A stretch of DNA of 64,000 nucleotides from Candidatus Limnocylindrales bacterium (GTDB lineage: Bacteria > Chloroflexota > Limnocylindria > Limnocylindrales > CSP1-4): assembly GCA_046707905.1 (NCBI GenBank), contig JBKKDM010000177.1, forward strand, positions 11,570-75,569, written 5' to 3'. Below are positions 13,013 through 64,000 of the stretch, piece by piece (the first letter of the stretch is position 1; the number at the start of each line of letters is the position of its first letter). The position numbers were made by a program, and so were the translations under genes. A model generated the notes under the pieces. That model was not told the origin of the DNA, made no database searches, and saw only the letters and a list, made by a program, of their open reading frames with translations.

Positions 13013-13087
13013 TTCGCGCCAAACCCGCGCCTTTCTCGTGGGTTTCGCTCGTTTATCCCGCGCCCCCGGCGGCCGTTCAATCCGGCC

Positions 13088-13309: not shown

Positions 13310-15888
13310 GCGTCATCCTCGACACCGCCCTGGCAATGGCCGCTGCGGGCTGGAATGTGATCCCACTGCACACCCCGATCGACGGCGCGTGCGACTGTCA
13401 TCGGCCCCGTTGCCCCTCCCCCGGCAAGCATCCCCGGACGAAGAACGGCCTCAGCGACGCGACCGCGGATGGCGATCAGATCCGCAGGTGGTGGGGGATG
13501 TGGCCCACCGCGAACATCGGCGCCGTGGTTCCGGACGGCTTCATCGTGGTCGACGTGGACTTGGCCGACCTCGCCACAGTCTTCCGGAGCGACGAGCTGC
13601 CAAGCACGGCGACATCGAGGACGGGTCGCGGCAGGCACCTGATCTACCGAACCAGCACGCCGATCCGGCCGAAGGTCGGCGTCCGCGAGCACGTCGATCT
13701 CCGCGGCCCGGGCTCGTACATCGTGGTCCCGCCCTCGCTCCACATCAGCGGCGCGCGCTACATGTGGGTCGTGCCGATCGAGGACGGGATCGCGGAGGCG
13801 CCGTCCTGGATCGCCGACGCGGCCGGACCACCTCGGACGGCAGGCGATCGTCCCGAGGACTCGGACGCCATTCCCGACGGCCAGCGGAACGCCACGCTCG
13901 CCTCCCTGGCGGGCACGATGCGTCGACGGGGCATGACCGCCGCCGAGATCGAGGCCGCGTTGGTGGCGGTGAATGCTCACCGCTGCCAACCGCCGCTGCC
14001 CGATGACGAGGTCCGCGCGATCGCGGCCAGTGTCGGGCGCTATCGGCCGGGCGAAGGGCGTGCGACCCGACCGACGCCCGTCCACGACGATGTCGGCGAT
14101 CCTCCCTCTTACGCCGAGGGCAGCGCGCTGGAGTCGGAACCCGGTGATTCGGTACCCGCCGAGCCCGCGGCAGGCGTGAAGCGATCCCAGGCCACCATGA
14201 TCCTGGACCTCGCGGCGGACGTCGAGTTCTTCCACACCTCGGATGACGTCGCCTACGCCCGCATCGAGCGCGACGGTCATCACGAGGTCTGGCCGCTGGC
14301 CTCGAAGGCCCTTCGATTCTGGCTCGCACGCCGCTTCCACCAGGCATACGGTCGAGCCGCTGGCGGACAGGGACTTCGAGATGCGCTCGATGTCCTGGGG
14401 GCTCGAGCGCTCTTCGAGGGGCCCGAGTGCCCGGTGCACGTCCGGGTCGCTGGTGATGGCACCGACATCTACCTCGACCTGGGCGACCCGCTCTGGCAGG
14501 CGGTCAGGATCACGGCTACGAGCTGGCAGCTCGCCCCCGACCCGCCCGTGCGATTTCGCCGCCCTAAGGGCCTGCTCCGCCTGCCGATACCCGTCCGGGG
14601 CGGAACCGTGGATCAGCTCCGTAGGTTCGTGAACGTCCGAGAGGACGACCAGGACAACCAGTGGCGCCTGTTCATCGGATGCCTGGTCGCTGCGTTCCGG
14701 CCGAACGGTCCGTATCCGATTCTCGCCCTCAACGGCGAGCACGGCTCGGCCAAGTCCACCACGGCCAAGATCCACCGCCGGCTAATCGACCCCAACAAGA
14801 GCGTCACTCGCGCCGCGCCGCGTGATGAGCGCGACTTGGCGATCGCGGCGACCAACGGGGCCGTCATCTCCCTCGACAATCTCTCGACCGTCCCGGACTG
14901 GCTCAGCGACACGCTCTGCCGGGTCTCGACTGGCCTCGGCTTCAGCACCCGAACCCTCTACGAGAACGATGAGGAGACGTTGTTCGATGCCTGCCGCCCG
15001 ATCGTCATCAACGGGATCGGCGTTCTCGGCACGCGCAGCGACCTGCTAGACCGCACGATCGACCTCGAACTGCCCCGGATCCCGGACGACCACCGCCAGG
15101 ACGAAGCTCAGTTCTGGGCGGCGTTCGATCGCGAACAGCCGGCGATCCTCGGCGCCCTCCTGGACGCGGTCTCGGGTGCCATCGGTCGGCTCGACGCGGT
15201 CCAGCTCGAGCGGGCGCCCAGGATGGCCGACTTCGCCCGCTGGGTCGTTGCCGCCGAACCAGCGCTCGGCTGGCCCGCCGGCTCGTTCCTGAAGGCGTAC
15301 ACGGGCAACCGTGACGCGATCCACGAACTGGCCCTCGACGCGGCGGTGATCGTCCCGCCGATGCGCACGATGCTCGAGGCGGGCGAATTCGTCGGGACCG
15401 CCACGGAGCTCCTCGATCGGCTCGCCGGCATCGTGGGGGAGGCGGCCACCCGGCGCAAGGGCTGGCCAGGCAACGCCACATCCCTCTCGCGGGAGCTCGC
15501 CCGGATCGCGCCGAACCTCCGCTCAGTCGGCATCGAGGTCGAGAAGCGCCGCGAGTCTCACGGCCGCCGCCTGATCGCCATCCGTATCGCCGCCGAAACG
15601 CCGTCACTCGCGTCACCGCCGTCACCGGCCATGAGCCCTGGTGACGCGGCGTCATCCGACGGCGACGGGACGGGTCTGTGGGATGGGCCGAGCGTCACCG
15701 AGGATCGCACTCGTGGTGACGAGAGTGACGGTGGTGACGGTCTTCTGCACGTTGCGCCGGACGACGGGCTCGAGGTCGCCCGGGAAGCGCTGCGGATCCT
15801 CGCCGACGACCTCACCGACGAGTCGGCTGCACGCCTCAAGGCCGTGGTCGCTCGAGCCGACGACATCGGTTGGGGTGGTCTCGCGTGA
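13306..15888 (+). CDS. Bifunctional DNA primase/polymerase (Prim-Pol) + PriCT-1 + P-loop ATPase/helicase
   Basis: GWNVIPLH..CDC...GKHP, ANIG, DVD, G.HL, DLRG.GSYIVVPPS; IPDGQRNATLASLAG (PriCT); GEHGSAKST and SLDN. Start set at ATG 13306 (overlap with the RHH stop). Confidence 0.9.
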   Translation: MSVILDTALAMAAAGWNVIPLHTPIDGACDCHRPRCPSPGKHPRTKNGLSDATADGDQIRRWWGMWPTANIGAVVPDGFIVVDVDLADLATVFRSDELPSTATSRTGRGRHLIYRTSTPIRPKVGVREHVDLRGPGSYIVVPPSLHISGARYMWVVPIEDGIAEAPSWIADAAGPPRTAGDRPEDSDAIPDGQRNATLASLAGTMRRRGMTAAEIEAALVAVNAHRCQPPLPDDEVRAIAASVGRYRPGEGRATRPTPVHDDVGDPPSYAEGSALESEPGDSVPAEPAAGVKRSQATMILDLAADVEFFHTSDDVAYARIERDGHHEVWPLASKALRFWLARRFHQAYGRAAGGQGLRDALDVLGARALFEGPECPVHVRVAGDGTDIYLDLGDPLWQAVRITATSWQLAPDPPVRFRRPKGLLRLPIPVRGGTVDQLRRFVNVREDDQDNQWRLFIGCLVAAFRPNGPYPILALNGEHGSAKSTTAKIHRRLIDPNKSVTRAAPRDERDLAIAATNGAVISLDNLSTVPDWLSDTLCRVSTGLGFSTRTLYENDEETLFDACRPIVINGIGVLGTRSDLLDRTIDLELPRIPDDHRQDEAQFWAAFDREQPAILGALLDAVSGAIGRLDAVQLERAPRMADFARWVVAAEPALGWPAGSFLKAYTGNRDAIHELALDAAVIVPPMRTMLEAGEFVGTATELLDRLAGIVGEAATRRKGWPGNATSLSRELARIAPNLRSVGIEVEKRRESHGRRLIAIRIAAETPSLASPPSPAMSPGDAASSDGDGTGLWDGPSVTEDRTRGDESDGGDGLLHVAPDDGLEVAREALRILADDLTDESAARLKAVVARADDIGWGGLA
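15603..15740. repeat. Inverted arrays of 9-bp-period GTCAC/GTGAC repeats (iteron-like)
   Basis: GTCAC at 15603, 15612, 15621; GTGAC at 15716, 15725, 15734; single copies at 15641 and 15694. Confidence 0.8.
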
Positions 15889-16064
15889 CCAGCCAGCCTC
15901 AATTAGGTGTGGAGCGCGATCCGCTCGTCGCCGCCCTCGCCCGCTACGTCGAGGCCCTCCATCGGCGCTATCCGGATGGCCCGGACCAGCTCCGCCGCGA
16001 GGGACTTGACGCCAGAGCAAAGGTGTCTCGGATGGTCAGGATTCAGAGGGACCCCGCCACGTGA
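15885..16064 (+). CDS. Small hypothetical protein between primase and recombinase
   Basis: GTGA overlaps at both ends. Confidence 0.55.
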   Translation: MTSQPQLGVERDPLVAALARYVEALHRRYPDGPDQLRREGLDARAKVSRMVRIQRDPAT

Positions 16065-17595
16065 AGCGCCTGCCACGCTCGCTCGACGAGATCGGCGGCC
16101 TCCGGGCGGCCCGCTGGATCCGGGAGTCGACGGCCGGCCAATACGACCGCTACGGGCCGGCGAGCCAGCGCGAGCAGCAGGACCGGTTCATCGAGCGGCA
16201 CGGCCTCGTCGACTCCGGGCTCGTGTACCAGGTCGCGCACAGCGGTCGGACCGTCTGGCGCTCGGCGACGATGGCCACGATGGTCGAGGACCTCCGATTG
16301 GGCCGCTTCGACCTCCTCCTCACCGGCTACTCGGACCGCTGGCAGCGCAACCTGCGCCGGACGCTCGAGCTCCTTGAGGACGAGTTGCACCCGAACGGTG
16401 TCGCTCTGGTCATGTGCGACCGGAAGATCCTGAGCACCGATCCCTCGGACTGGGACGAGCTGATCTCCGAGGCGGCGGGAGCGGAGAAGTACAGCCGTCG
16501 CTTGTCCGAGCGGATCACGGAGGGCTACGCCGCCAAGTTCGACCAGGAGCGAGATCCGGGCGGGCACGCCGGTCTGGGCTTCCGACGGCTGCCGCGGCCG
16601 CCGCACACTCTGGAGATCGACCCAGACCGGATGCACATCGCCGTCGGCCTGTTCGAGCGGTACGCCCTCGGCAACGTGAGCGCGACGGGGCTCGAGGCAG
16701 AAACCGGCCTCGCCGCGACGCGAATCCGGATGATCTTGATGAACCCGCTCTACAACGGCTGGATCCGCCGACACCGTGGTCCGAGCGAGGCTCGCCGGCC
16801 GGCCCCCTGGCGCTTCGACCCACCTGTCTCGGACGATCTGTGGGCTCGGGTCGAGGACGTGCGACGGGCAAGAACACAGGGTGGGGACCCCGCCACCGCG
16901 GTCGCATGGACCTGCTCGCCGGGCTGCTGGAGTGCACCTGCGGGAGGCGGATTCGGTCAGACGGACGGATGGGAAACTCGGAGCGGGTGGCCAAACTACA
17001 CACCGCGCCGTGTGCGGCCTGGGGTTCGAAAGCACGCATTCCCGCATCCACGTGGGAGATCCCCGTCATCGCCCAGCTCGGGTCGATCCGTGTCGACACC
17101 GCCATGCGCGCCCAGATCACGGGGGTGCTGTCCGCGAGTGAACGTCCCGTGACGATGGATCGTGCCAGGCTCGCACGCCAGATGCGTGAGCTCGCGCTGG
17201 AGCATGCCGCGGCTCGCCTCGACGACGCGGAATACCTCGTGCGGATGGCACGCCTCCGCGAAGATCTGGAAATCGTGGGGGCGCAGCCGGCCCGGGACTT
17301 GCCAGCGCGTCGCGCGACCGAGTGGCTCGACGCCCTGGCCGAAACGTGGCAGAAGGCCGATCTAGTAGAGGAGAAATCCGACGTGATCCACGCGATATAT
17401 GAACGGATCGTCATCGAAGGGCCGCGCTTCGTCGGCCTTCGCCTCACACCGGCCGCGTACCGGCACGGATTGGCGCTCGCGCTGCCAGAGGCTGTTATGG
17501 CGCGCCCGACAGGAGTTGAGCGCGCGGATGCCATAAATACTCGCATCCCGATCGAGGAAAGCCGAGACAGGCTGATCGCGGGCGAGATCGCCTGA
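16061..17595 (+). pseudogene. Large serine recombinase (integrase), split by one frameshift at ~16883-16891
   Basis: WIREST catalytic motif, DRWQRN, ILMNPLYNG, PVSDDLW in frame 1; LLAGLLECTCG Zn ribbon and coiled coil in frame 2. Adding one base in the GGGG/CCCC run restores a ~510-aa ORF. Confidence 0.88.
17498..17514 (-). other. att-core candidate: 17 nt resembling a tRNA(Arg-type) 3' end including CCA
   Basis: Minus strand TCCTGTCGGGCGCGCCA (3' T-stem, acceptor strand, CCA); the rest of a tRNA is absent. Confidence 0.6.
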
Positions 17596-46292: not shown

Positions 46293-46892
46293 CTAACCCG
46301 GCACCCTCTCTACCGCGGAGCCCGCACCGAGCATCGCGGCAGCCAGCCCGACATCGGACCGGAACCGCGCCCGCCTCTCCGGCACCCGGTTCAGGCTGGC
46401 GGGGTGATAGGTCGGCACAACCCATCGGTCCCCACACCGATGCGCGCGACCCCGCACCGCCTCAAGCATTGTTGACCGGCCCAGCAGCCGGGCAGCGGCA
46501 ACCTGTCCAAGCGTGAGTACAACCATCGGAAGGACGATGGCCAATTGCGCGTCGAGCCAGGGCTCGCACGCAATGACCTCTGCCGGGCGGGGCGGCCGAT
46601 CCTTGCCCGCCGCGCCCGTCGGGCGATGGAGCACCACATTCGTCACGTAGGCTTGCTCGCGCGACACGCCCGCCTCTTGGAGTGCGCGGTCGAGTGTCTG
46701 GCCCGACCGCCCTACGAACGGTCGCCCCGCTCCGGCCTCCGTTTGTCCGGGCGCCTCACCGAGAATCAACAACGCCGCTCGTGACGGCGGCTGGTTGAGC
46801 GATGGCCGCCCAGAGCCGGCGAGGGGGCATCTGTCGCATCCCGAGACCGCCTCCACAAGGGCGATCGCTTCACCTGCTCGACCGCGAACCAT
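46293..46892 (-). CDS. Family 4-type uracil-DNA glycosylase
   Basis: CDRCPL, GEAPG..E, PFVGRSG, TNVV..RP, ACEPWL, TYHPA. Confidence 0.9.
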   Translation of the reverse strand: MVRGRAGEAIALVEAVSGCDRCPLAGSGRPSLNQPPSRAALLILGEAPGQTEAGAGRPFVGRSGQTLDRALQEAGVSREQAYVTNVVLHRPTGAAGKDRPPRPAEVIACEPWLDAQLAIVLPMVVLTLGQVAAARLLGRSTMLEAVRGRAHRCGDRWVVPTYHPASLNRVPERRARFRSDVGLAAAMLGAGSAVERVPG

Positions 46893-47323: not shown

Positions 47324-48457
47324 ATGACTGAATCAGGGCGCGACCTCGTCGACTGGCTCTACTACGGTGACAATCTCGAGGTCCTTTCGAGGTTCATCTC
47401 CGATGGGAGCGTCGATCTCGTGTACCTCGACCCACCTTTCAACAAGAACGCGGCCTACAGCGTCATCTTTCGCGACGAATCCGGGCGCACAAGCGACGCC
47501 CAGATCGCGACGCTCGACGACTACTGGCATTGGGGACCGACACCGTCCCGCCACTATGAGTACCTCACGAACTCCGCGGAACATCGCGGATCCGTGCCCC
47601 CCGCCCTCAGCGAGCTCATCGGGGCGCTCCATTCGGCGATCCGTCCCAGCCCGCTCCTTACGTACCTCGTCGAGATGGCAATTCGGCTCGTGGAGTTGCG
47701 TCGCGTTCTGAAATCGACCGGGTCGCTCTGGCTCCATTGCGACCCCACCGCGAGTCACTACTTGAAGCTCCTCCTCGACGCCATCTTCGGGGCCGAGCAG
47801 TTCCGGGCCGAGGTGATATGGCGACGTTCCGACGCCCACAACAATGTGGGCCAGGGTCAGCGCATCCTCGGCCGTGTCCATGACGTCCTTCTGTACTACT
47901 CGGTCTCCAATCGCTACACGTTCAACGTCACCTACACGTCGCTACCCGACTCGACCATTGCTACGTGGTACCGACACATCGAGCCGGATACCGGTCGCCG
48001 CTACAACCTGGCCGACATGACGGCGCCCGGCGGCGCTTCACCAGAGAAGCGCAATCCACATTACGAGTTCCTCGGCGTCATGCGGTACTGGCGATACAGC
48101 GAAACTCGTATGCAGGAGCTCTACGAGCAGGGCCGAGTCGTCCAGACAAAACCCGGCAACGTCCCGCAGCTGAAGCGGTACCTCGATGAGAGCAAAGGCG
48201 TCCCACTTCAGGACGTGTGGACCGATGTTCCGATGGTCCGTGGGCGCGGAACCGAGCGTCGAGGCTACCCGACACAGAAGCCCGTGGCGCTACTCGAGCG
48301 GATCATCAAGCTGGCCTCAAACCCGGGTGCAGGAGCCTCGGCTGAACGTCATCCGGGCCGCCCCGCTTGGCGAGTTCCATCCATTGGTCTTCGCGACGCG
48401 CGACTTCGTCCATCTACCTGCCACCCCGATGTCAACGTCGGTCTGCCCACCGCATAA
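47324..48457 (+). pseudogene. N6/N4 DNA methyltransferase (beta class), homology ends at ~48328 before motif I
   Basis: YYGDNL, YLDPPF, LKSTGSLWLHCD, YPTQKP.ALLERII..SNPG, then unrelated sequence with no DPFxGSG. Confidence 0.85.
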
Positions 48458-48726: not shown

Positions 48727-49626
48727 ATGGCTGAAGGCGGCATAGGTGTGCTCGGCCGGTACAAGCTTGTCTTGGGAGCGGCCGTCATCTCGCTGGCCGG
48801 GGTCGCCGTCGCGCTCGTCTCGACCCCGCCCAGGCCATCCGTCAGCCCGACAGTGAGGCAAACCATCGCGCCCGGCGCGGTGTGGCCAGAGGGCTTCGTC
48901 GTCCGTCCGGGCGATCGGGCGGTCGGCGTCGGTCAGCTCGTGGCGCGAAACGGCGAGGCGACACTCCTCTGTACCGGACTCGATGGGCTGCTCGATAAGG
49001 CGGGTGCCCAATACAGATGCTCCCAACTGAGTGTTGAGGTTCGAGGCGTTGACCTCCCGACGATCGGGCAGGTTCGGAAGCTCGCGGGAGCCAGCATCAT
49101 CGACGATGTCGTCCTCCACGGGATCTGGAATGGTCAATCTCTCACCGTTGACGCGGTTGGCGGGGTGGCAGTCAGACTCCCGGCATCTCCATCGTTGAGC
49201 TGTGAATTTGAGGTGCCTGGGGCGGCGAGCGAGGACCCTTGGGCTGGTGACACGGAGGCGGCCTACCAACGCCTCAAAGCCGAGGTCGATGCGAATCCGA
49301 CGGCCTATGCGGGCATTTGGGTCGCGAATGGGCCGCAGCGTGCAATCGTCGTGGCGACGACGCAAGACCTGGTGTCTACGGGCGTCGCGCTCCGTCGACT
49401 ATTCCCGTTCGCACTTTGCGTGGTGAGAGTGAGGTTCTCGATGGCTGAGCTGTCCTCTGTGGCCGAAAACTTGCCCCGGCCTGCCGGAGCTTGGTGGAGG
49501 GTCGAAATCGATGTATCCCGCAACCGAGCCTTGGTCCGCGTGCCCGTTCTCACGGACGAGGTCGTCCGCGCCCTTGTGGACCAGCCGGCGGTCGAAGTCC
49601 TGCCGATATTGATGTTGGAGCCCTAG
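48727..49626 (+). CDS. Membrane-anchored/secreted hypothetical protein
   Basis: N-terminal TM; upstream of the S1 protease. Confidence 0.6.
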   Translation: MAEGGIGVLGRYKLVLGAAVISLAGVAVALVSTPPRPSVSPTVRQTIAPGAVWPEGFVVRPGDRAVGVGQLVARNGEATLLCTGLDGLLDKAGAQYRCSQLSVEVRGVDLPTIGQVRKLAGASIIDDVVLHGIWNGQSLTVDAVGGVAVRLPASPSLSCEFEVPGAASEDPWAGDTEAAYQRLKAEVDANPTAYAGIWVANGPQRAIVVATTQDLVSTGVALRRLFPFALCVVRVRFSMAELSSVAENLPRPAGAWWRVEIDVSRNRALVRVPVLTDEVVRALVDQPAVEVLPILMLEP

Positions 49627-49689: not shown

Positions 49690-50883
49690 ATGCGACGGAT
49701 TTATGCCTTGGTCAGCGCAACCCTAGTAGCGATCGCGGTTGGAATTGGTGGGCAGTCGCAGGCAGCGCTCGCAGCCGGCGATAACTGGATCGACACCGTC
49801 GATGAGGAGAGGCAGCTCGTGGAATTCCAGGCGAAGGCCGAGGCCGCAGGTGCCCTCGGCTTCTATCACGACGAAGAGACAGCGTCCCTCGTGGTTCTCG
49901 TACCTCCTACCAAGAGGGCCACATTTGAGGTTAGGGCTCTCGGTCCCTCGCCAGTCCGCGTGGTAGTCAAGATCTCGAAGGTAGAGTCTGCTGACCTTCA
50001 GTTGGCCAGAGACCGGCTGGACACGTTTGCTCGAGGCCTCACGCGGGGAGAGTCCTTATCATCTTGGTTCAACCCTCGTTCCGAGCGGCTTGAGGTATCC
50101 GGGTCCGCGGCCCAGGACGATGTTCTAGATTCGATGGGAAGTTCCCGAGCGCTCGTCAGCTACAGCCCGGCGACTGTGGTTCAGGAAAGCCGTTTCAACG
50201 ACTTTTCCCCATTCTGGGGTGGCTCAGCGCTCAAATACCAGGGCCTAACCAGCGAGATCTTCGACTGCACGTCGGGTTTCGCAATGACAAACGGCAGCAC
50301 CGAGGCTTTGGTGACTGCAGCGCACTGCGGCCCTGTCAACTACACCGTCCTTTCACCGGATGCCAATCGTGTGATCGGCACGACTCTGCAGGGAGGGCGT
50401 TGGTGCCCAACTGATCCCAATGGTCCGCCGAGTAACAATGCCGACGTGCAGCTCATTACGGGCAAGAACTATGACAACACCATCTATATTGGCAATAAGA
50501 CCGGTGGGCCTGGGATAGTGAGCCTCGGGGCAGGCGACCCCGCTGTCGGTGCCACCTACGCCGTAAGTGGCGCAAAGACATATGAGCATACCGGGATCAA
50601 GGTGTTGAGCCTAACTGGGCAAATCAATAACGACGCCTGCGGCGTCCCAGGTAGCCTGTCGACCTTGATTGTCTATGCGTACGTCCAAGGCAACGAGTCG
50701 TACTGTCCAACTCAAGGCGGCGATTCAGGGGCGCCGTTTTACTATCGAGACAACCTCACTCCGACGCATGTTGGCATTCGCGGTATGCACATTGGCCGGT
50801 CAACGGCGACCAACTCGGTTTGCTTCGCGATGCGGTACAACAAGATCGCTGGCGTGAGCGGACGGTGGGCGTTGACCAACTAG
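49690..50883 (+). CDS. Secreted S1 (chymotrypsin-like) serine protease with prodomain
   Basis: Signal peptide; CTSGF, VTAAHC, AD, GDSGAP. Confidence 0.9.
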   Translation: MRRIYALVSATLVAIAVGIGGQSQAALAAGDNWIDTVDEERQLVEFQAKAEAAGALGFYHDEETASLVVLVPPTKRATFEVRALGPSPVRVVVKISKVESADLQLARDRLDTFARGLTRGESLSSWFNPRSERLEVSGSAAQDDVLDSMGSSRALVSYSPATVVQESRFNDFSPFWGGSALKYQGLTSEIFDCTSGFAMTNGSTEALVTAAHCGPVNYTVLSPDANRVIGTTLQGGRWCPTDPNGPPSNNADVQLITGKNYDNTIYIGNKTGGPGIVSLGAGDPAVGATYAVSGAKTYEHTGIKVLSLTGQINNDACGVPGSLSTLIVYAYVQGNESYCPTQGGDSGAPFYYRDNLTPTHVGIRGMHIGRSTATNSVCFAMRYNKIAGVSGRWALTN

Positions 50884-52393: not shown

Positions 52394-52929
52394 TCAGCTT
52401 GGGCTCGTTGTCAGGCCCAGGACGGAAGCCTCGACCTCGTCGCACTCACAGCGCTGCCAGCGGCTGCCGGTTCCAGTTCCGCTTCCTCCGGGCCCTGCCC
52501 AGATCAGCCACAGCTCGACCGTGAGCGGCTCACGCATCGGCTGCCCTGACGCCGACTGCAACTCCACTATAAGGACGCCGCCATCTTCAGCGAGCGGCTC
52601 ACCAGCGCCGGCAGGTATGGGTACCGTGTAAGAGCCTCGGCTATCGATTGGATAGGGACTGATGCTCCCGAGAAACAATGATTGGCCGCTCGCGAGTTGA
52701 AGAGTCAGGTCGATTGCCCAAGCCTGCCGCATCGGATTGCTGGAGGTCCTCACACGCACGGTGATGACATCCCGTGCCTCACCTGCCGGCACATCTATGC
52801 GAGCAACTGGTGACGATGCTGACAGCGTCGTAGCGCCCCCCGTAACGCCAGGGCTTGCCGTCGGCTCAACGGCGCACCCAACGAGGAGAAAGCCGAGCGC
52901 GAGGACGATTGCTAAGCAGCGAGCTTCAC
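52394..52929 (-). pseudogene. Lipoprotein with disrupted 5' end
   Basis: LAIVLALGFLLVGC lipobox lacks an in-frame start; one added base gives MKLAALAIV from GTG 52929. Confidence 0.45.
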
Positions 52930-53490
52930 GGTCGATGTGAGGACTCTGATCTCGCTCGCTGCGATTGACAAGGCACCGATCTCGACGTTGCGATCGGAGG
53001 GCGGGACGATCTGTAGGGTGATTCGGATGCGATCGCTCGAGTTTTCCAGCCTCTCCAATTTGGCGGTGAAATCGAGGTCAAATCGAAGCGGGTTCTCCCG
53101 ATCGATTGGGCAGATCAGCACGCCTTCGGGCCCGTCAACCTCGCAGAAGAAGGCGAGCGACCCGAGAAATGAAGGCTCATCGGGCGAGACGTCGACCGGA
53201 GCGAGGTCGCGATTGAGCAGTAGGTACAGGTCGAAGTCGTGGGTTCGGTCAAGGCCGACGACGTCGAGGCTCAGAACGACCCTTCGGTCGCTCGTCTCGA
53301 GCAGGACTTTGCGAACTTCATCGCCAGTCGTGTCAAACACGAGCGTTCCGGGCGCGTCAAGAAGGGCTTCGGCACCCTCTGGCGCCGGGAACGACTGCAC
53401 GAGCTCGAGGCGAGTCTCTGCACCGGCTTCGAGGAAGGCTTGGAGCGCCTTTGCCTCTTCTTCCGTCTTGGGTTCGCTAAAGCCAGCCAT
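52912..53490 (-). CDS. Tyrosinase/PPO-associated C-terminal-type beta domain, encoded separately
   Basis: FDLYLLLN.......PSFLGSLAFF pattern; in frame with the tyrosinase, one codon after its TAG. Confidence 0.6.
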   Translation of the reverse strand: MAGFSEPKTEEEAKALQAFLEAGAETRLELVQSFPAPEGAEALLDAPGTLVFDTTGDEVRKVLLETSDRRVVLSLDVVGLDRTHDFDLYLLLNRDLAPVDVSPDEPSFLGSLAFFCEVDGPEGVLICPIDRENPLRFDLDFTAKLERLENSSDRIRITLQIVPPSDRNVEIGALSIAASEIRVLTSTVKLAA

Positions 53491-53493
53491 CTG

Positions 53494-54435
53494 CTACGGC
53501 ACCCCCAGGACCGGATCGTCAAAACGATAGTTGAAGAACGGATAGAGGATTGTGTCGCGGACTCGAACGGTGACGGGATTTCCCGCTCGATCGCAGAATT
53601 CGGTGAACTGCCGGTCCAGCCAGTCGGAGCTGTTGGTGTTCGGGTTGCCGCGGCGGATATTCCACTCGACCCAGATGGCTTCGATCATGTTGTGATGGGT
53701 CCAGAAGACGGGGTCCAGCGGCGACATGAAGGTCACCATGTTGCCAAGAACGAATGTATGCACGCGATTGTGCGGGCCACCTTCGAGTTGCCCACCCGAA
53801 GCGGCTTGGCGCTGGCTACCGCTGAGGGGAATCTGCCCACTCGCGAAGAGCAGGAAGTTCGGCTGGATGAGGATGTTTTCGATGGCGGGCGGTCCGAAGA
53901 CGGTCGACGGGAGTGCGCTCGTGGCGGTCGAAACACGCGTGCCGTCGAAGAGCGTGCTAGCCGGGTCCCAGAAGACGGGTGGCATCGTGAGGTTGTCCTG
54001 CCAGTTCCAGTACGGCAACGCGAAGTCAGCCATGCCCGAGAGCTCGCGACAGATCTCCTCGAAGTAGTACAGATAGGCACGGTGCCAGGGGAGGAAGAGC
54101 CAATTCCCGTGCGGACAGAAGTTCAGGTGGATTTCGGCTTGGCGGGTCCAGTTGCGTCGATCCGAGGCCGGCAGGGCCTTCATCGCGGACACTGCGGTCC
54201 GGTAGGCGTCGAGAATCGGGTCTGTGGCAGCCAAGGTGTTGACGCCGCGACGAAGGGGCCGATTGGCAATCCTGTTCAGCAGGTCGCCAATCTGCTCGGG
54301 AGTGCAGGACGCCAGAACGACTGCCAGACCCGAGAGGACCGCGGCTTGCAGGAATGCGCGCCGGGAGAAGCCAACGTCTATCCAAACTCGGTCGTTGACC
54401 GGCGGGAGCAGCGCTTCGAGCGTGCTCGTATCCAT
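53494..54435 (-). CDS. Tat-exported tyrosinase (type-3 copper)
   Basis: SRRAFLQ Tat motif plus LASC; CuA H..CPHGNWLFLPWHRAYL; CuB HNRVH..MSPLDPVFWTHH. Confidence 0.92.
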   Translation of the reverse strand: MDTSTLEALLPPVNDRVWIDVGFSRRAFLQAAVLSGLAVVLASCTPEQIGDLLNRIANRPLRRGVNTLAATDPILDAYRTAVSAMKALPASDRRNWTRQAEIHLNFCPHGNWLFLPWHRAYLYYFEEICRELSGMADFALPYWNWQDNLTMPPVFWDPASTLFDGTRVSTATSALPSTVFGPPAIENILIQPNFLLFASGQIPLSGSQRQAASGGQLEGGPHNRVHTFVLGNMVTFMSPLDPVFWTHHNMIEAIWVEWNIRRGNPNTNSSDWLDRQFTEFCDRAGNPVTVRVRDTILYPFFNYRFDDPVLGVP

Positions 54436-59053: not shown

Positions 59054-61231
59054 GTGCCCACGTCCGATCCCCTGCGGGAGCCCGAGGTTCCTGACGACGC
59101 CGAGAGCGGCGCCTTAAGGCCCCGAGCCCGCCTCCTGCGAGCCTTCGGCGAGGAACTGATCAGTTCCGAGAAGGTCGCCGTGACCGAGCTCGTGAAGAAC
59201 GCCTACGACGCCGACGCATCCCTCGTGTTGGTGCGCTTCGTCCCGCCGCTCGAAGAAGGCGGCGGAGCGATCGAGGTCGTCGACGACGGACACGGCATGG
59301 CCCTCGAGACCATCAAGGACACGTGGATGGAGCCCGGGACCACCTTTCGCAAACAACGCACTCATAGCGAGGGCCGAGGTCGACGTGTCCTCGGCGAGAA
59401 AGGAATCGGACGTTTCGCCGCTTCACGCCTCGCCGATCGCCTCGAGGTGGTCACCAAGCGTGCCTCTGACCCCCAGGAAGTACACGTCTTCTTCGACTGG
59501 ACGCAATTCGACGATTCGCGGTATCTCGAGGATGTGGTCGCCAAGTGGTGGACCGCGGAGCCGAGCGAGTTCGACCCCGAAGGAGCGGTCGGTCGGCTCG
59601 CCAAGTCGGCAAAGCGAAGCTCAATCCCTGATCACGGCACCGTCCTGCGGATGTGGCCACTTCACAACGACTGGAATGAAGAGGCAATCAAGGATCTCCG
59701 CCTCACCTTGGCCAGGCTCCTGCGGCCGCTGCCCGCCCCAAGTCCGGCAAAGGGGAAGGCACGCGCGGGCGAATTCTCGATCTTCCTCGAGCTGCCGGAG
59801 GAATTTGCGTCGATGGCGGGTCCCGTCGAGCCGTCCGACACGCTCGGCAAGCCCGAATACTCGATTGGAGGCTCCGTCGCTGGCGACGGCCATTACGACT
59901 TGTCGCTCCGGATCGGCAAGGGACGCCCGAGCCGACTAACCGGGAAATTCGCTCTAGGCGATGAACGCGAGCCGCTTTCCGGGCCCTTCGAAATCGAGCT
60001 TCGAGTCTGGGACCGCGACCCTTCATCGCTTGATCGGGTGGCCAAGGCCCTCGATTCGACAATCAAGAATGTCCGCCAGGATCTCAATGATGCGGCTGGC
60101 GTCAGCGTGTATCGGGACGGCTTTCGGGTGCTGCCCTACGGGGAGCCGGGCGACGATTGGCTGAAGCTCGATTCGCGCCGCGTCAACGATCCGACGAAGC
60201 GTCTGTCGAACAACCAGATCGTCGGCGTCGTAACCATCTCGGGCGATGGCAACCCCGTGCTCACAGACCAGACGAATCGCGAAGGACTGATGGCAGGGGG
60301 AGCATTTGAGGACCTTCGCAAGCTGGTCCTGAACGTACTTTCCTTGCTTGAGGTGGAGCGCTACGTGAAGCGCCACGCGCCCGAGGCGACGCCCAAGCGT
60401 GGCGGCGTATTCGTCGGGTTTGACTTGGCTGATCTCGAAGGCTTGGTCAGGACCCGTCACCCCGCCGACTCGGAGCTCCTCGCCGAGGTCGAGAACAAGC
60501 AACGCGAGCTCGTCCGTCGGATCGACGCCGCGCAGGATGTAGTCGGGCGGTACCGGCGCCTCGCGACCCTCGGGGAGCTCATCGACTCGGTCGTGCACGA
60601 TGGTCGTACCCCCCTCGGCAAGATCCGGAATGCCGTCGAACTCGCGCTAAAGGAGATCGAGCGGGCATATGCCGAAGCGGAGAAGCTTCGGAAGCATCTT
60701 GATCTCGCCGACCGTCAGGCGGCGGCGTTGGCCGACCTCTTCAGGCGCATCGAGCCCTTTGGCGGGCGCAGGCGCCGGCGCCCCGGCCCCCTCATCGTCG
60801 AGGAGGGAATCAGGGACGCCTTCGAATTGCTGGGCTCCGAGTTGAGCACGGCATCGGTCCGCACGGTCCTCCCCGAGTCCAGCACGTCCATGGTGGCCAA
60901 CTCCGGCGAGATCCAGGAGATCCTCGTCAATCTCATCCAGAACGCGGTGTACTGGTTGAAGCAGGTGCCTCGGACTGATCGCCAAATTTCCGTGGACGTC
61001 TTGCCACATGACGGAACGGTGGAAGTCCTGTTCTCGGACAGCGGACCCGGTGTGGATCCGGAATTCGCGGATCGCGTGTTCGAGCCCTATTTCTCGACGA
61101 AGCCTGACGGCGTCGGACTGGGCCTTGCGATCGCGGGCGAAGTCGCAGAGGAGTACTACGACGGGCGCCTCGAGCTGATGTCATCGGGCCCTCTTCCCGG
61201 CGCGACCTTTCGACTGACTCTCAAGAGATGA
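59054..61231 (+). CDS. GHKL (MutL/MORC-like) ATPase fused to a soluble histidine kinase
   Basis: RBS GGAGG; ELVKNAYDA, DDGHGM, GEKGIGRFA, GT; HDGRTP, NLIQNA, DSGPGV, FSTK.DGVGLGL; no TM. Confidence 0.92.
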   Translation: MPTSDPLREPEVPDDAESGALRPRARLLRAFGEELISSEKVAVTELVKNAYDADASLVLVRFVPPLEEGGGAIEVVDDGHGMALETIKDTWMEPGTTFRKQRTHSEGRGRRVLGEKGIGRFAASRLADRLEVVTKRASDPQEVHVFFDWTQFDDSRYLEDVVAKWWTAEPSEFDPEGAVGRLAKSAKRSSIPDHGTVLRMWPLHNDWNEEAIKDLRLTLARLLRPLPAPSPAKGKARAGEFSIFLELPEEFASMAGPVEPSDTLGKPEYSIGGSVAGDGHYDLSLRIGKGRPSRLTGKFALGDEREPLSGPFEIELRVWDRDPSSLDRVAKALDSTIKNVRQDLNDAAGVSVYRDGFRVLPYGEPGDDWLKLDSRRVNDPTKRLSNNQIVGVVTISGDGNPVLTDQTNREGLMAGGAFEDLRKLVLNVLSLLEVERYVKRHAPEATPKRGGVFVGFDLADLEGLVRTRHPADSELLAEVENKQRELVRRIDAAQDVVGRYRRLATLGELIDSVVHDGRTPLGKIRNAVELALKEIERAYAEAEKLRKHLDLADRQAAALADLFRRIEPFGGRRRRRPGPLIVEEGIRDAFELLGSELSTASVRTVLPESSTSMVANSGEIQEILVNLIQNAVYWLKQVPRTDRQISVDVLPHDGTVEVLFSDSGPGVDPEFADRVFEPYFSTKPDGVGLGLAIAGEVAEEYYDGRLELMSSGPLPGATFRLTLKR

Positions 61232-62427
61232 CGGTGCCCGAGGAGGAGCCCTGGCAGATCCTTGTCGTGGACGACGACCCCGAATACCAGGACCAAGTGC
61301 GCGAGATGCTTGGCCGGATGACGTTCGCGGCAGGCGTCTCCCCCGAAGTCATCGCGGTACAGGACTTCGAATTGGCTCTCGGCGAGCTCGCAGGTCGCCG
61401 CGTGGATCTTGTCATTCTCGACATCCGCCTGGACGGCGCCCATACCGACGTTGATGCCGGCATCCGGACCTTGGAGGCCATCCGCGCGCGCCGATTCGTG
61501 CCCATCATCTTCTACACGAATCTGCCCGAGCACGCCCGCGATCTGGAGGCCCCCCCGCTCATCCAGATCGTCGAGAAGGCCGCAGGCCCGAATGCTCTGG
61601 AAGCAGCGGTGGGCACGGCTTTCGACTCTGGCCTACCGCTGCTCAACCGCTCGATCCTCCGGATCGTCGAGGAGGGCCAGCGTGCCTACATGTGGGACTT
61701 CGTGGCGAAACACGCGCCCGATCTCATGACAACTGAGGACCCGGCATCCCTCGGCTACCTGCTGGCCCGACGGCTGGCCTATTTCATCGCCAAGGAAGGA
61801 AGCGGCTCCCTCATCGAGGCGCTCGGAGGGGTGCGCGGATCCGCTGGGATCTATCCGCCGATACGCATGTACCTCATCCCGCCGGTGCCCGAAGTCCTCG
61901 TCGGCGACCTCGTCAAGGGCGAGGTCGACGGGCGGAACGGCCACTGGGTCGTACTTTCGCCCTCTTGCGACCTGATGCAGGGCAAGGCCGAACGTGTGCT
62001 GCTCGCGGCGGCCGAAGCCCTCGAGCAGCAGCCGGAGGCGGTGGCGGTGCGGAACGCGACGCCACCGCCCAGCAAAGCTGTTCGAGTGGCCCTCGAGAAG
62101 GTGGTCGGCAACAAGAACGTCAACCCGCCGCGCCAGGACGAGCGGCATCATGCCTTACCGGGTGCTCTCGGCCTCCCCGATCTCCTCGTGGATTTCCAGC
62201 AGCTGACGTCAGTCAAGCGTGAGACCTTCGACGGCCTCGAGCGGGTCGCATCTCTCGACAGCCCGTACGGCGAGGCGTTGTCCGCGCGCTTCCTCCGCTA
62301 CTACAGCCGGCTCGGCACCCCGAACATCGACATCGCACCTGTCATGACGAGGATCGCCGCCCTTGGCCCTATGACCGATGTCGCGGCTGTGGCAGCGGGG
62401 ACGGTCGATGAAACCAGTGCCACTTGA
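61228..62427 (+). CDS. Response regulator: REC domain + unknown C-terminal domain
   Basis: VVDDD, ILD, YT, K receiver residues; C-terminal VLSPSCDLMQ ... LDSPY...RYYSRLG; ATGA overlap with the kinase. Confidence 0.85.
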   Translation: MTVPEEEPWQILVVDDDPEYQDQVREMLGRMTFAAGVSPEVIAVQDFELALGELAGRRVDLVILDIRLDGAHTDVDAGIRTLEAIRARRFVPIIFYTNLPEHARDLEAPPLIQIVEKAAGPNALEAAVGTAFDSGLPLLNRSILRIVEEGQRAYMWDFVAKHAPDLMTTEDPASLGYLLARRLAYFIAKEGSGSLIEALGGVRGSAGIYPPIRMYLIPPVPEVLVGDLVKGEVDGRNGHWVVLSPSCDLMQGKAERVLLAAAEALEQQPEAVAVRNATPPPSKAVRVALEKVVGNKNVNPPRQDERHHALPGALGLPDLLVDFQQLTSVKRETFDGLERVASLDSPYGEALSARFLRYYSRLGTPNIDIAPVMTRIAALGPMTDVAAVAAGTVDETSAT

Positions 62428-62561
62428 CAATCTCGCCATGATCGCGAGACGAACGGGTACATGAATCAGCTACCGGCTGTGATGTCCCGAGGGTGGAAAT
62501 GGAACGGACGTTCGACTACAATACCTCGCCCCGGCACAAGCACTTGATCGACCAAGGTCCT

Positions 62562-64000
62562 GTGACCAGTCCGCCCGCTCCTCTACTACCGGCTGCTCGA
62601 GCGGCCGAAATTGCCCGCCGCACAAAGCTCGCTCGTCTGCGCCAAGGTGCGGCGCCCCGGGTTCTCGAACTCGCGTCGGGCTGCGGCGGCCTTGCCCTCG
62701 GCCTGAAGCGGGCCGGCTTCGAACTCACGGCGCACGTCGAGGTGGATCCTGAGGCGGCCGAAACGTATCGGCTCAACTTCGGGCCGGACCGTGACGCCAA
62801 GTGGGCCGCTGTGCGAGACATGGCCGCTGTGGGTCCGGCAGCGCTCGCCGAGGAGCTCGCGCTTGGCGAGCCGGCCCTCGCCATAGACATTCTCGCGGCT
62901 GGCCTGCCTTGCCAAGCCTTCGCGCGCATCGGCCGTTCGAAGCTGCGTGACGTGTCGGGTGACGGCGAGGCGTACAAGAATGACGCACGCTCGCGCCTGT
63001 ACCTGCGTTTCCTCGAATACGTCGAAGGGACCGCGCCTCTGGTCGTGGTTCTGGAGAATGTTCCGGACATCCTCAATCACGGAGGCCACAACGTCCCGGA
63101 GGAAATCGCGGCGAACCTCGCGTCGAAAGGCTACGAGGTGCGTTACACCATTCTGAACGCCGCCCATCATGGCGTACCCCAGATCCGTGAGCGCCTGTTC
63201 CTGGTGGCCTTCGCTCGGGAGCTCGGCGCGGTGCCGAAGTTTCCGGAGCCCAGCCACCACCTCGACCTCCCCAAGGGTTATGAGGGCTCGCGGCGGGTCG
63301 CTTTGAAGCACGTCCCCGCTGACAGTCCGTGGTTCGTTCCAATGAAGAAGCCCGACCCGGCCCTGCCGGCGGCGGTGACCGTCAAGCAGGCCTTGGCCGA
63401 TCTGCCTCTCATCCGCGACCACCAACTAGATCCCGGGTCGATGCGCCGGCGCTCACTTGACGAGGAAATTGCCTACCGCCTGCCGGCCGGGCTCACCTAT
63501 GCCGCCGGCATGAGGAATTGGCCTGGTACCGCTTCGGCGAAAGCTTCGACCGGGCACAAGGTCCGCATGACACCGCGGGACTACGGGACCTTCCTCGCAA
63601 TGGCACAAGGTGCCGACTACCCGCAAGCGCTCAAGGTGGCCGAGACCCGTCTGGCTGCCGCCTTGTCGGCCCTGGATCCGAGCGAGGCGTCCGAGCCGCA
63701 AACCGTCGAAAGGTTGCGCGCATCGATCGTACCGCCGTACGACGTGGCGAACTTCCCGAACCGTTGGTGGAAACTCGATCCGCGCCGGCCTTCGCGAACC
63801 CTCACGGCGCACCTCGGCAAGGATGGCTACAGCCACATCCACTACGACGGCGAACAGTCACGCACGATCTCGGTTCGCGAGGCGGCTCGGCTGCAGTCGT
63901 TTCCGGACGGGTTCCGCTTCAGCGGCACGATGAACGCAGCCTTCAAACAGATCGGAAACGCGGTGCCGCCGCTGCTCGCGTGGGCTCTCGGCAGATCTAT
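62562..64000 (+). CDS. C5 cytosine DNA methyltransferase, 3' end runs off the window
   Basis: ELASGCGG (motif I), GLPCQAF (IV), ENV (VI), QIRERLF (VIII), REAARLQSFPD (IX), QIGNAVPP (X). Not in the ORF track because it has no stop in the window. Confidence 0.95.
   Translation, partial: MTSPPAPLLPAARAAEIARRTKLARLRQGAAPRVLELASGCGGLALGLKRAGFELTAHVEVDPEAAETYRLNFGPDRDAKWAAVRDMAAVGPAALAEELALGEPALAIDILAAGLPCQAFARIGRSKLRDVSGDGEAYKNDARSRLYLRFLEYVEGTAPLVVVLENVPDILNHGGHNVPEEIAANLASKGYEVRYTILNAAHHGVPQIRERLFLVAFARELGAVPKFPEPSHHLDLPKGYEGSRRVALKHVPADSPWFVPMKKPDPALPAAVTVKQALADLPLIRDHQLDPGSMRRRSLDEEIAYRLPAGLTYAAGMRNWPGTASAKASTGHKVRMTPRDYGTFLAMAQGADYPQALKVAETRLAAALSALDPSEASEPQTVERLRASIVPPYDVANFPNRWWKLDPRRPSRTLTAHLGKDGYSHIHYDGEQSRTISVREAARLQSFPDGFRFSGTMNAAFKQIGNAVPPLLAWALGRS

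What the first reader, a model, noticed from the sequence alone, without database searches (positions are those of the whole stretch)
59054..64000. GHKL-ATPase/histidine-kinase hybrid + response regulator + C5 methyltransferase: a phosphorelay-linked RM-like system
A soluble kinase whose input is a MutL/MORC-type ATPase, with intact motifs in both ATPase domains, overlaps a REC protein lacking any DNA-binding HTH and precedes a Dcm-type MTase. MORC/MutL-like ATPases are known to associate with RM operons computationally, but I know of no established mechanism for this kinase-fused form. Hypothesis: the GHKL clamp senses foreign DNA or RM inhibition and signals by phosphotransfer to an effector.
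Basis: partly seen in the sequence, partly recalled or inferred. Interest (0 to 1): 0.72.

Follow-up and report, generated by a model that had tools for sequence, protein, structure and literature searches.

The report
Kinase-gated toxin module beside DNA methylase
A soluble sensor kinase built on a MutL/Hsp90-type ATPase, a response regulator whose output domain has the fold of MazF/PemK toxins, and a cytosine DNA methylase form a compact gene cassette found in many bacterial phyla; the gene association was already reported in 2021, but how the cassette works is untested.

Summary
Window 59054-61231 encodes a GHKL(HATPase_c_3)-transducer-DHp-CA hybrid kinase. It overlaps by ATGA a REC protein at 61228-62427, and a C5 methyltransferase follows from 62493.

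All catalytic and phosphorelay motifs are intact and invariant across about 50 homologues. In 63 of 72 related loci the kinase sits directly upstream of the regulator. In 40 of 46 loci with enough flank a C5 MTase lies within 4 kb, often with Vsr or an HhH-GPD glycosylase.

The linkage is real, but it is not unknown. A sibling architecture was described computationally in 2021 (PMC8011034). A 2025 preprint validated 'Ambrosia', which combines an MTase, an HK/HATPase, a REC protein and a type IV nuclease.

Two points are new here. The regulator's 264-aa output domain has no sequence-family match, but its AlphaFold model matches MazF/PemK toxins in two structure libraries. No conserved nuclease partner exists in this clade.

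Beyond the window end, this locus also carries a convergent AspBHI-like 5mC-dependent nuclease.

My best reading is a methylation-linked defence or addiction cassette in which a paraMORC-type clamp kinase gates a PemK-fold effector by phosphotransfer. Function is inferred, not shown.

The parts
59054..61231 (+). Soluble hybrid sensor kinase (725 aa): MutL/Hsp90-type GHKL ATPase, conserved middle (transducer-like) region, helical linker, DHp, CA
   Evidence: Pfam and NCBIfam hits. PDB profile hits to FixL/ZraS-type HK cores (residues 468-721) and to the MutL/HtpG N-domains (residues 17-137). Gene call and start codon.
59111..59488 (+). N-terminal Bergerat-fold ATPase (HATPase_c_3): E45/N49/D52, D77xGxG, G114xKGxG
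   Evidence: Motif positions. These columns are invariant in 43-53 homologues.
59984..60313 (+). Highly conserved middle block (YRDGFRVLPYGE...NNQIVG...DQTNREG), a candidate GHL transducer domain
   Evidence: Conservation map and invariant columns. No Pfam hit; only phrog_8137 matches. The role is inferred.
60596..60598 (+). Codon of His515, the predicted phospho-accepting histidine (H-box VHDGRTPL)
   Evidence: Invariant in A3.
60779..61228 (+). Kinase catalytic ATP-binding (CA) domain with N, G1, F and G2 boxes
   Evidence: HATPase_c at E 3.2e-21. Motifs. Conservation.
61228..62427 (+). Response regulator (399 aa): REC plus helical linker plus PemK/MazF-fold output domain
   Evidence: AF2 model at pLDDT 82.
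61420..61422 (+). Codon of Asp65, the predicted phospho-acceptor of the REC domain
   Evidence: Invariant in 38 homologues.
61633..62424 (+). Output domain (residues 136-399). The beta-barrel core, about residues 226-362, resembles MazF/PemK. Invariant residues are C247, D248, R306, D322 and R361.
   Evidence: AF2 at pLDDT 88.8. In Foldseek PDB all top-50 hits are MazF/PemK-family toxins, with E about 1e-3 and TM (target) 0.57-0.77. In BFVD, 9 of the top 13 hits are named PemK-like, MazF-family toxin or endoribonuclease. No Pfam or PDB sequence hit.
62493..64000 (+). C5 cytosine DNA methyltransferase, 3' end cut by the window (518 aa in full); catalytic PC140Q at 62901-62915
   Evidence: PF00145 at E 6.9e-53. 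TIGR00675. Motifs. Full length read in L001.

Best explanation
This is a compact, horizontally mobile, methylation-linked defence or addiction cassette. It consists of a C5 DNA methyltransferase, a soluble paraMORC-type sensor histidine kinase and a REC-gated effector.

Inferred mechanism:
1. The kinase's N-terminal MutL/Hsp90-like ATPase and its conserved middle domain act as an ATP-driven dimerising sensor. It probably works on DNA and may use the MTase or the 5mC state as the self mark.
2. The conformational change is passed through the helical linker to the DHp/CA core.
3. His515 is autophosphorylated.
4. The phosphoryl group goes to Asp65 of the regulator.
5. This releases or activates the C-terminal PemK/MazF-fold domain. 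That domain then acts on nucleic acid, most likely RNA, or poisons a target, and so arrests the infected or unmethylated cell.

Shown here: the domain architecture, intact and invariant catalytic and phosphorelay residues, translational coupling, conserved gene linkage, and the fold of the output domain.

Inferred: the signal, the direction of control, the effector's substrate, and the defensive role.
For: Architecture and motifs are intact in both ATPase domains and in the REC domain. These residues are invariant in 38-53 homologues from more than 10 phyla, so phosphotransfer is under selection.

The kinase lies directly upstream of the regulator in 63 of 72 loci. Six of the other nine are cut by a contig end within about 1.3 kb upstream, and three carry only partial regulator matches.

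A C5 MTase lies within 4 kb in 40 of 46 well-flanked loci. Vsr is present in 19 and an HhH-GPD glycosylase in 9 of those 46.

The cassette is on conjugative or mobilisable plasmids of Acaryochloris, Bacillus and Campylobacter. Here it sits in a lower-GC stretch that also carries another MTase.

The output domain is a large family, with 2418 cluster representatives at E<=1e-3. It has a PemK/MazF toxin fold and invariant polar residues.

There is precedent for two-component defence with REC-gated toxic effectors in Detocs. There is precedent for an MTase+HK/HATPase+REC defence that needs the acceptor Asp in Ambrosia.
Against: - There is no experiment on this family.
- The MazF likeness rests on fold only. 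hhalign against E. coli and B. subtilis MazF gives probability below 1%. The catalytic Arg of the beta1-beta2 loop has no obvious counterpart, and the Cys at the Thr52-equivalent position is Ala in the window protein (by-eye mapping).
- The kinase's variable region does not diverge more when the partner MTase is replaced. The kinase itself therefore probably does not read the MTase's target sequence.
- Six of 46 loci have no C5 MTase within 4 kb.
- PADLOC has no model for the regulator.
Confidence: 0.5

Rival explanations
1. Ambrosia-type logic. The two-component pair switches on an MTase and a modification-dependent (type IV) nuclease, so that DNA methylated on demand is cut. In this locus the nuclease would be the AspBHI-like 5mC-dependent enzyme encoded convergently just after the MTase.
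For: The Ambrosia preprint reports MTase + HK/HSP90-like HATPase + REC + type IV HNH. All are required, including D60 of the REC protein, and methylation is not protective. Here a RE_AspBHI_N + Mrr_cat gene (E 3e-58 and 3e-11) starts 14 nt after the MTase stop on the opposite strand. L015 also has an AspBHI-like gene next to the regulator.
Against: The regulator has no HTH, so transcriptional control is unlikely. Mrr_cat occurs in only 2 of 120 neighbour ORFs, and no HNH family is among the top 25 families. The frequent Vsr or T:G-glycosylase companions imply constitutive host methylation rather than induced methylation. Homology to AbrB/AbrC could not be tested because no sequences were at hand.
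Confidence: 0.15
2. A selfish addiction module. The kinase-regulator pair kills or arrests cells that lose the methylase or the mobile element (post-segregational killing), without a primary anti-phage role.
For: The cassette is compact and mobile, it sits on plasmids and in islands, it has a toxin-fold effector, and MTases are replaced while the kinase stays 77-79% identical. These features resemble the behaviour of RM systems as selfish elements (discussed).
Against: This reading is not exclusive of defence. There is no direct evidence of toxicity. Six of 46 loci lack an adjacent MTase.
Confidence: 0.15
3. A housekeeping or epigenetic signalling pair. The regulator's output domain modulates the methylase, or repair of 5mC damage, in response to an intracellular cue such as nucleotide level or DNA damage. 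It is not a toxin.
For: The 2021 paper proposed regulation of RM by this type of TCS and NTP sensing. The cassette is linked with repair genes (Vsr, HhH-GPD). MazF-like SH3 barrels can be binding modules.
Against: Distribution is patchy across phyla, and the cassette sits on plasmids and in islands. The output domain has invariant C/D/R/D/R residues that suggest catalysis. There is no DNA-binding domain.
Confidence: 0.12
4. The three genes are neighbours by chance, or the ORFs are not real genes.
For: None beyond the general frequency of long spurious ORFs in high-GC DNA.
Against: Strong family hits, hundreds of homologues, and conserved order and linkage.
Confidence: 0.02

Closest known systems
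HEF_HK / Response_reg_2 'TCS-like' pairs linked to C5 methylases and paraMORCs (Bellieny-Rabelo, Pretorius & Moleleki 2021, PMC8011034; computational)
   Same: Same three-part kinase (N-terminal HATPase_c_3, DHp, C-terminal HATPase_c). It is soluble and sits next to an RR-like gene of about 350-400 aa with no known output domain. The neighbourhood is rich in C5 MTases and Vsr. Plasmid homologues from Enterobacter and Campylobacter align over 96% of the kinase at 28-31% identity. They share the regulator's output domain at hhalign probability 98.8-99.5%.
   Different: The window proteins, and also the plasmid homologues, give no hit to PF19191 or PF19192 in the Pfam copy used. They match canonical Response_reg and HisKA instead. 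The paper assigns no fold or role to the output domain. The taxa here are mostly Chloroflexota, Actinomycetota, Verrucomicrobiota and MAG-only lineages.
Ambrosia defence system (bioRxiv 10.1101/2025.09.30.679545; experimental, Pseudomonas)
   Same: It combines a DNA MTase, a sensor HK/HSP90-like HATPase protein and a REC protein in one cluster. The phospho-acceptor Asp is required. A modification-dependent nuclease is part of it, and this locus has a type IV enzyme next to the MTase.
   Different: Ambrosia has an XRE regulator, an N6-adenine MTase, a REC protein said to carry a wHTH, and an HNH type IV nuclease. Here there is a C5 MTase, no XRE, no HTH, a PemK-fold output, and a nuclease partner in only 2 loci. 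Sequence homology was not testable.
Detocs (DtcABC; Rousset et al., bioRxiv 10.1101/2023.01.24.525353)
   Same: A cytosolic sensor kinase phosphorylates a REC protein whose DNA-binding domain is replaced by a cell-arresting effector. Swapping of the effector domain is documented.
   Different: Detocs has a TPR sensor, a buffer REC protein (DtcB) and mostly PNP effectors, with no MTase link. Here the sensor is a GHKL ATPase, there is no stand-alone REC gene, the effector is different, and there are no PADLOC hits.
Prokaryotic MORC/paraMORC GHKL ATPases of RM operons (Iyer, Abhiman & Aravind 2008, PMC2292703) and BbrUII/HgiDII-type GHKL restriction enzymes
   Same: The N-terminal HATPase_c_3 domain matches NF050001 restrict_BbrUII (E 1.8e-19) and the PADLOC REase_II models, over the ATPase part only. 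It is associated with cytosine MTases.
   Different: The C-terminal two thirds are a histidine kinase, not a nuclease or recognition module.
MazF/PemK/Kid type II toxins
   Same: The fold of the regulator's beta-barrel plus C-terminal helix matches them.
   Different: There is no sequence-level similarity and no antitoxin gene. About 90 aa of helices precede the barrel and a helical insert lies within it. The catalytic Arg/Thr are not evidently conserved. The domain is fused to REC.

Membership tests
Two-component phosphorelay (HisKA-type HK + REC) | DHp helix with a conserved phospho-accepting His, followed by a CA domain with N, G1, F and G2 boxes | tested here: met
   H515 in VHDGRTPL, N630, D662xGxG, F676, G686xGLG. 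All are invariant in A3. The HK core matches FixL/ZraS/HK853 structures, with E down to 6e-31.
Two-component phosphorelay (HisKA-type HK + REC) | REC domain with an acidic pair, an acceptor Asp, and conserved Thr and Lys | tested here: met
   D15/D16, D65, T97 and K117 are conserved in 38 sequences. PF00072 scores 38.3 bits against a cutoff of 30.2. Foldseek hits are REC structures.
Two-component phosphorelay (HisKA-type HK + REC) | Demonstrated phosphotransfer between the pair | not testable with these tools
   Needs biochemistry. Only the ATGA coupling and adjacency in 63 of 72 loci support pairing.
paraMORC / GHL ATPase | Bergerat-fold motifs (E/N box, DxGxG, GxxGxG) in an N-terminal HATPase_c_3 domain | tested here: met
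   PF13589 at E 2.6e-17. Motifs. Profile hits to MutL and Hsp90 N-domains.
paraMORC / GHL ATPase | S5-fold transducer domain after the ATPase | tested here: inconclusive
   A strongly conserved block at residues 311-420 has no Pfam or PDB sequence match.
HEF_HK / Response_reg_2 TCS-like (PF19191 / PF19192) | Match to the PF19191 (kinase) and PF19192 (regulator) models | tested here: not met
   No hit at E<=10. Distant plasmid homologues also give none. Whether the library copy still holds these models could not be checked.
HEF_HK / Response_reg_2 TCS-like (PF19191 / PF19192) | HATPase_c_3 + DHp + HATPase_c kinase adjacent to an RR-like gene, in a C5-MTase/Vsr neighbourhood | tested here: met
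Detocs | Three genes including a stand-alone buffer REC (DtcB), a TPR sensor in DtcA, and DtcC with a PNP or other known killing effector | tested here: not met
   No TPR or PNP hits. No second REC gene in the locus. Response_reg is not among the top neighbour families. No PADLOC match for the regulator.
Ambrosia | XRE regulator, N6-adenine MTase, HK/HATPase, REC-wHTH and type IV HNH nuclease in one cluster | tested here: not met
   The MTase is of the C5 type. There is no HTH in the regulator, no XRE nearby and no HNH. A type IV nuclease of another family (AspBHI_N + Mrr_cat) is adjacent. Homology to the Abr proteins was not testable.
Classical type II RM system | Cognate restriction endonuclease with the same specificity as the MTase | tested here: inconclusive
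   No conserved nuclease family next to the cassette in 120 neighbour ORFs. The kinase's variable region does not track MTase replacement. Unrecognised nucleases cannot be excluded.
MazF/PemK toxin | MazF/CcdB-type SH3-like barrel with a C-terminal helix | tested here: met
   Foldseek PDB: all top-50 hits are MazF/PemK-family toxins, TM (target) 0.57-0.77, E from 1e-3. BFVD: hits named PemK-like or endoribonuclease.
MazF/PemK toxin | Sequence-profile match (PemK_toxin), catalytic Arg/Thr, and a cognate antitoxin gene | tested here: not met
   No Pfam hit in 44 members. hhalign probability below 1%. No small upstream antitoxin ORF.
AspBHI-like type IV restriction enzyme (neighbour gene) | N-terminal AspBHI 5mC-binding domain plus a Mrr-type PD-(D/E)xK catalytic domain | tested here: met
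   PF18062 at E 3.2e-58 and PF04471 at E 3.2e-11 in L001 6000-7190 (-). The D...EAK motif is visible in the translation.

The most novel reading that the evidence does not exclude
This is a restriction system without a restriction nuclease. A MORC-like DNA clamp fused to a histidine kinase interrogates DNA, using the partner C5 methylase or the 5mC mark as the self signal. When it meets unmarked DNA it phosphorylates a REC-gated PemK/MazF-fold toxin. Self/non-self discrimination by methylation would then be coupled through a phosphorelay to abortive infection rather than to DNA cleavage.
Probability: 0.3. Interest if true: 0.8.

Novelty: new variant of a known kind. Interest (0 to 1): 0.55.

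Why it matters
If the reading holds, it joins three themes that are usually separate: epigenetic self-marking, GHKL/MORC DNA clamps, and two-component phosphotransfer to a toxin-fold effector. It would give a bacterial model for how MORC-type ATPases read methylation state.

The family is large, with more than 2,400 cluster representatives of the output domain. It spans many phyla and travels on conjugative plasmids, including Campylobacter pTet-like plasmids. No current defence-finder model covers the regulator.

Assigning a PemK/MazF fold to the output domain turns a 'domain of unknown function' into testable predictions: toxicity of residues 136-399, and mutants at C247, D248, R306 and D322.

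Tried and rejected
The sequence beyond the window was obtained from the Logan contig L001 instead.
- The Pfam models PF19191 and PF19192 gave no hit even at E<=10.
- A profile of the output domain found nothing in PDB sequences and nothing in Pfam.
- The full-length regulator model returned only REC hits, so the output domain was modelled alone.
The MazF link therefore rests on fold only.
- I tested whether the kinase's variable region (residues 146-310) diverges more in pairs whose MTase was replaced. It does not: 55.5% against 55.5%. I therefore dropped the idea that the kinase carries its own target-recognition domain matched to the MTase.
- I looked for a conserved nuclease among 120 neighbour ORFs and found none.
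- There was no match in phage genomes. There was no DNA-level match of the Enterobacter homologue in E. coli genomes.
- The promoter and terminator scan gave nothing above shuffles.
- Supplementary tables of the 2021 paper are not held.
- Only a soil metagenome DNA run holds the locus and no RNA runs surfaced, so there is no expression evidence.
- There are no tRNA genes in the window.


Full report
**1. What is in the sequence**

Three co-oriented ORFs fill the end of the window.

*The kinase.* The contig gene call starts it at GTG 59054 and it ends at 61231, giving 725 aa. GGAGG lies 9 nt upstream of the start.
- It carries an N-terminal HATPase_c_3 domain (E 2.6e-17), a weak HisKA match (E 1.2e-4, below the gathering score) and a C-terminal HATPase_c domain (E 3.2e-21).
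- NCBIfam matches the last 240 residues to many sensor kinases. It matches residues 66-179 of the 763-aa ORF to the BbrUII/HgiDII GHKL restriction-enzyme family.
- PADLOC sees only that N-terminal ATPase, as 'REase_II'.
- Against PDB sequences, the C-terminal third aligns with the FixL, ZraS and HK853 kinase cores. A profile of the family also picks up the MutL and HtpG/GRP94 N-domains.

*The regulator.* It runs from 61228 to 62427 (399 aa) and starts inside the kinase stop codon, as ATGA. It has a REC domain above the Pfam threshold and nothing else, even at E<=10.

*The methyltransferase.* It starts at 62493 and is a C5 MTase (PF00145, E 6.9e-53). It carries SGCGG, PC140Q and ENV motifs. It is cut by the window end 48 nt before its stop.

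**2. Beyond the window**

An exact-protein look-up returned a 13.9-kb soil-metagenome contig, L001, which overlaps the window end and continues for 7.9 kb.

Fourteen nucleotides after the MTase stop, on the opposite strand, lies a 396-aa gene with RE_AspBHI_N (E 3e-58) and Mrr_cat (E 3e-11) domains. This is a type IV nuclease that depends on 5-methylcytosine.

About 3.9 kb further on there is only the C-terminal half of a Vsr/DUF559-like sequence.

Upstream in the window, GC drops from about 72% to 60-66% at about 45 kb. That lower-GC stretch also encodes a UDG-superfamily glycosylase and an N6/N4 MTase. Earlier unchecked notes of this scan place a putative casposon just before this stretch and a decayed tRNA-Gly island some 11 kb after the window. 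The setting is that of a mobile or defence island.

**3. Conservation**

The regulator has hundreds of homologues with the same length and layout. A profile of its output domain alone finds 2,418 cluster representatives at E<=1e-3 among 1.84 billion. All of the top 150 that appear full-length carry about 135 N-terminal residues followed by the domain.

A scan of species-representative genomes gave 73 loci from many lineages:
- Chloroflexota
- Actinomycetota
- Verrucomicrobiota
- Planctomycetota
- Acidobacteriota
- Cyanobacteria
- Bacillota
- several candidate phyla

Gene linkage in those loci:
- The hybrid kinase lies directly upstream of the regulator in 63 of 72 loci.
- Of the other nine, six are cut by a contig end within about 1.3 kb upstream and three carry only partial regulator matches.
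- In the 46 loci with at least 3 kb on both sides, a C5 MTase lies within 4 kb in 40. Thirty are upstream on the same strand, six upstream on the opposite strand, and four downstream. The window has the rarer downstream, same-strand arrangement.

Other recurrent neighbours:
- Vsr is found in 25 loci overall and in 19 of the 46 well-flanked loci.
- An HhH-GPD glycosylase with an Fe-S motif sits directly before the kinase in 14 loci. It is probably a T:G-mismatch enzyme that substitutes for Vsr.
- DUF4420/Z1/AIPR/HATPase_c_3 clusters appear occasionally.

The same cassette sits on plasmids:
- Acaryochloris marina pREB1 carries dcm, an 'ATP-binding protein' and a 'response regulator'.
- A Bacillus plasmid carries the pair.
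- An Enterobacter mori plasmid carries the pair.
- Many Campylobacter conjugative plasmids of 51-75 kb carry the pair.

The Enterobacter and Campylobacter regulators share the output domain at hhalign probability 98.8-99.5%.

**4. Residue conservation**

Across 43-53 kinases the following columns are invariant or nearly so:
- E45, N49, D52, D77xGxG and G114xKGxG of the N-terminal ATPase
- a long middle block, YRDGFRVLPYGE...NNQIVG...DQTNREG, at residues 311-420
- H515 of the H-box
- N630, D662xGxG and G686xGLG of the CA domain

Residues 146-310 and 421-495 are variable.

Across 38 regulators, D16, D65, T97 and K117 of the REC domain are conserved. So are F158, Y215, G226, C247, D248, R306, P311, D322 and R361 of the output domain.

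Both ATPase activities and His-to-Asp transfer are therefore under purifying selection.

**5. The output domain**

The full-length AlphaFold model (pLDDT 82) returned only REC matches. I therefore modelled residues 136-399 separately, using 44 sequences (pLDDT 88.8). The model has a helical bundle followed by a beta-barrel and a C-terminal helix.
- Foldseek against the PDB returned MazF/PemK-family toxins (MazF, EndoA/YdcE, MoxT) as all 50 top hits. E values start at 1e-3 and TM scores are 0.57-0.77 when normalised to the roughly 110-residue toxins.
- The independent BFVD library returned proteins named PemK-like, MazF-family toxin or endoribonuclease as 9 of its top 13 hits.
- There is no sequence-level support. 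Pfam gives nothing, PDB sequences give nothing, and hhalign to two MazF sequences gives probability below 1%.
- By eye, the strand order GD..., ...LTPSCD, ...VLLA.C, ...VVDFQQL, then a helix ASLDSP..RF.RY parallels MazF. The catalytic Arg of the MazF beta1-beta2 loop has no counterpart.

I therefore call it a PemK/MazF-fold domain of unknown chemistry. An RNase activity is the leading guess, not a finding.

**6. Is it an RM system?**

No nuclease family recurs next to the cassette. In a Pfam tally of 120 neighbour ORFs, Mrr_cat occurs twice (one hit is L015's AspBHI-like gene, which I added to the set by hand) and no HNH family is among the top 25.

MTases are sometimes replaced while the kinase stays 77-79% identical. 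Examples are L044 against L040, and L009 against L065, where MTase identity is 24-27%.

If the kinase carried a recognition domain matched to the MTase, its variable region should diverge more in such pairs. It does not: 55.5% in both groups, though the pairs are not phylogenetically independent.

Three readings remain:
- The kinase borrows specificity from the MTase, as type III Res does from Mod.
- The kinase reads a generic feature such as 5mC state.
- The link is of another kind.

The frequent Vsr or glycosylase partners argue that the host genome is constitutively methylated. That fits self-marking.

**7. What is already known**

- Iyer et al. 2008 (PMC2292703) tied paraMORC GHKL ATPases to RM operons.
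- Bellieny-Rabelo et al. 2021 (PMC8011034) described essentially this architecture. They reported HATPase_c_3 + a DHp they named HEF_HK + HATPase_c, with 91.6% linkage to an RR-like gene (Response_reg_2). They also found an excess of C5 MTases and Vsr, and proposed a cytoplasmic TCS that controls RM.
- The window proteins do not match PF19191 or PF19192 in the library used. They are homologous to plasmid-borne enterobacterial and Campylobacter versions. I regard them as a sibling clade that keeps canonical REC and HisKA signatures.
- Detocs shows that a kinase-to-REC-effector relay can be a defence system.
- The Ambrosia preprint shows that an MTase + HK/HSP90-like ATPase + REC + type IV HNH cluster protects Pseudomonas. 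It needs every protein and the acceptor Asp, and its methylation does not protect.
- A 2026 preprint still treats paraMORC function as a proposal.

I found no experimental work on the C5-MTase-linked form or on its output domain.

**8. Verdict**

The feature is real, conserved and mobile.

The most likely reading (about 0.5) is a methylation-linked defence or addiction cassette. In it a paraMORC-type clamp kinase gates a PemK-fold effector through His515 to Asp65.

The Ambrosia-type reading gains some weight in this particular locus, because a 5mC-dependent nuclease abuts the MTase. It is not a property of the clade.

Novelty lies in the variant (canonical TCS domains, C5 MTase, no nuclease) and in the fold assignment of the effector. 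It does not lie in the gene association itself.

Noticed in passing
L001 6000-7190 (-), i.e. 63-1253 nt beyond the window end: A convergent AspBHI-like type IV (5mC-dependent) restriction enzyme (RE_AspBHI_N + Mrr_cat) lies 14 nt after the C5 MTase stop. A 5mC writer and a 5mC-dependent cutter are encoded side by side. L015 has a similar gene next to its regulator.
   Followed up: partly
L001 9906-10100 (+): Only the C-terminal half of a Vsr/DUF559-like protein (GW.V.R.WEHE) is detectable. It is probably a decayed Vsr about 3.9 kb from the MTase.
   Followed up: partly
window 46293-46892 (-) and 47324-48457 (+): A UDG-superfamily glycosylase and an N6/N4 DNA methylase lie in the same lower-GC stretch, which begins where GC drops at about 45 kb. 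This is a possible second modification module. The ORFs at 48727-49626 and 49690-50883 have no family hit.
   Followed up: no
window 52912-54435 (-): A tyrosinase (PF00264) is followed by a small protein with weak similarity to the polyphenol-oxidase C-terminal domain. This is an unusual pair for this setting.
   Followed up: no
L039 10136-10654 and 9 other loci (e.g. L024, L028, L029, L031, L044): A gene of about 175 aa lies about 55 nt downstream of the regulator in 10 loci, mostly Verrucomicrobiota and Planctomycetota. It has a weak DUF6998 match and a D...S-I-K motif reminiscent of PD-(D/E)xK. It is a possible extra component and is absent from the window.
   Followed up: partly
L016 19-1710 (+); L056 22-1185 (+); L021 5575-6885 (+): In some loci the HhH-GPD glycosylase ORF is much longer. 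In L016 it also contains a GVPCQ MTase motif, which suggests an MTase-glycosylase fusion or a read-through ORF.
   Followed up: no
L078 (Campylobacter jejuni pAR-0413-1 12064-16529) and about 35 similar plasmids: Campylobacter conjugative plasmids of 51-75 kb carry the kinase, the regulator and a convergent dcm, next to vapD and a HicB antitoxin gene.
   Followed up: partly
kinase residues 496-575 (window 60539-60778): Among kinase pairs of 62-85% identity, the DHp segment is less conserved when the partner MTase has been replaced (67.6% against 72.9%, Mann-Whitney p 1e-5; the pairs are not independent). This is unexplained.
   Followed up: no
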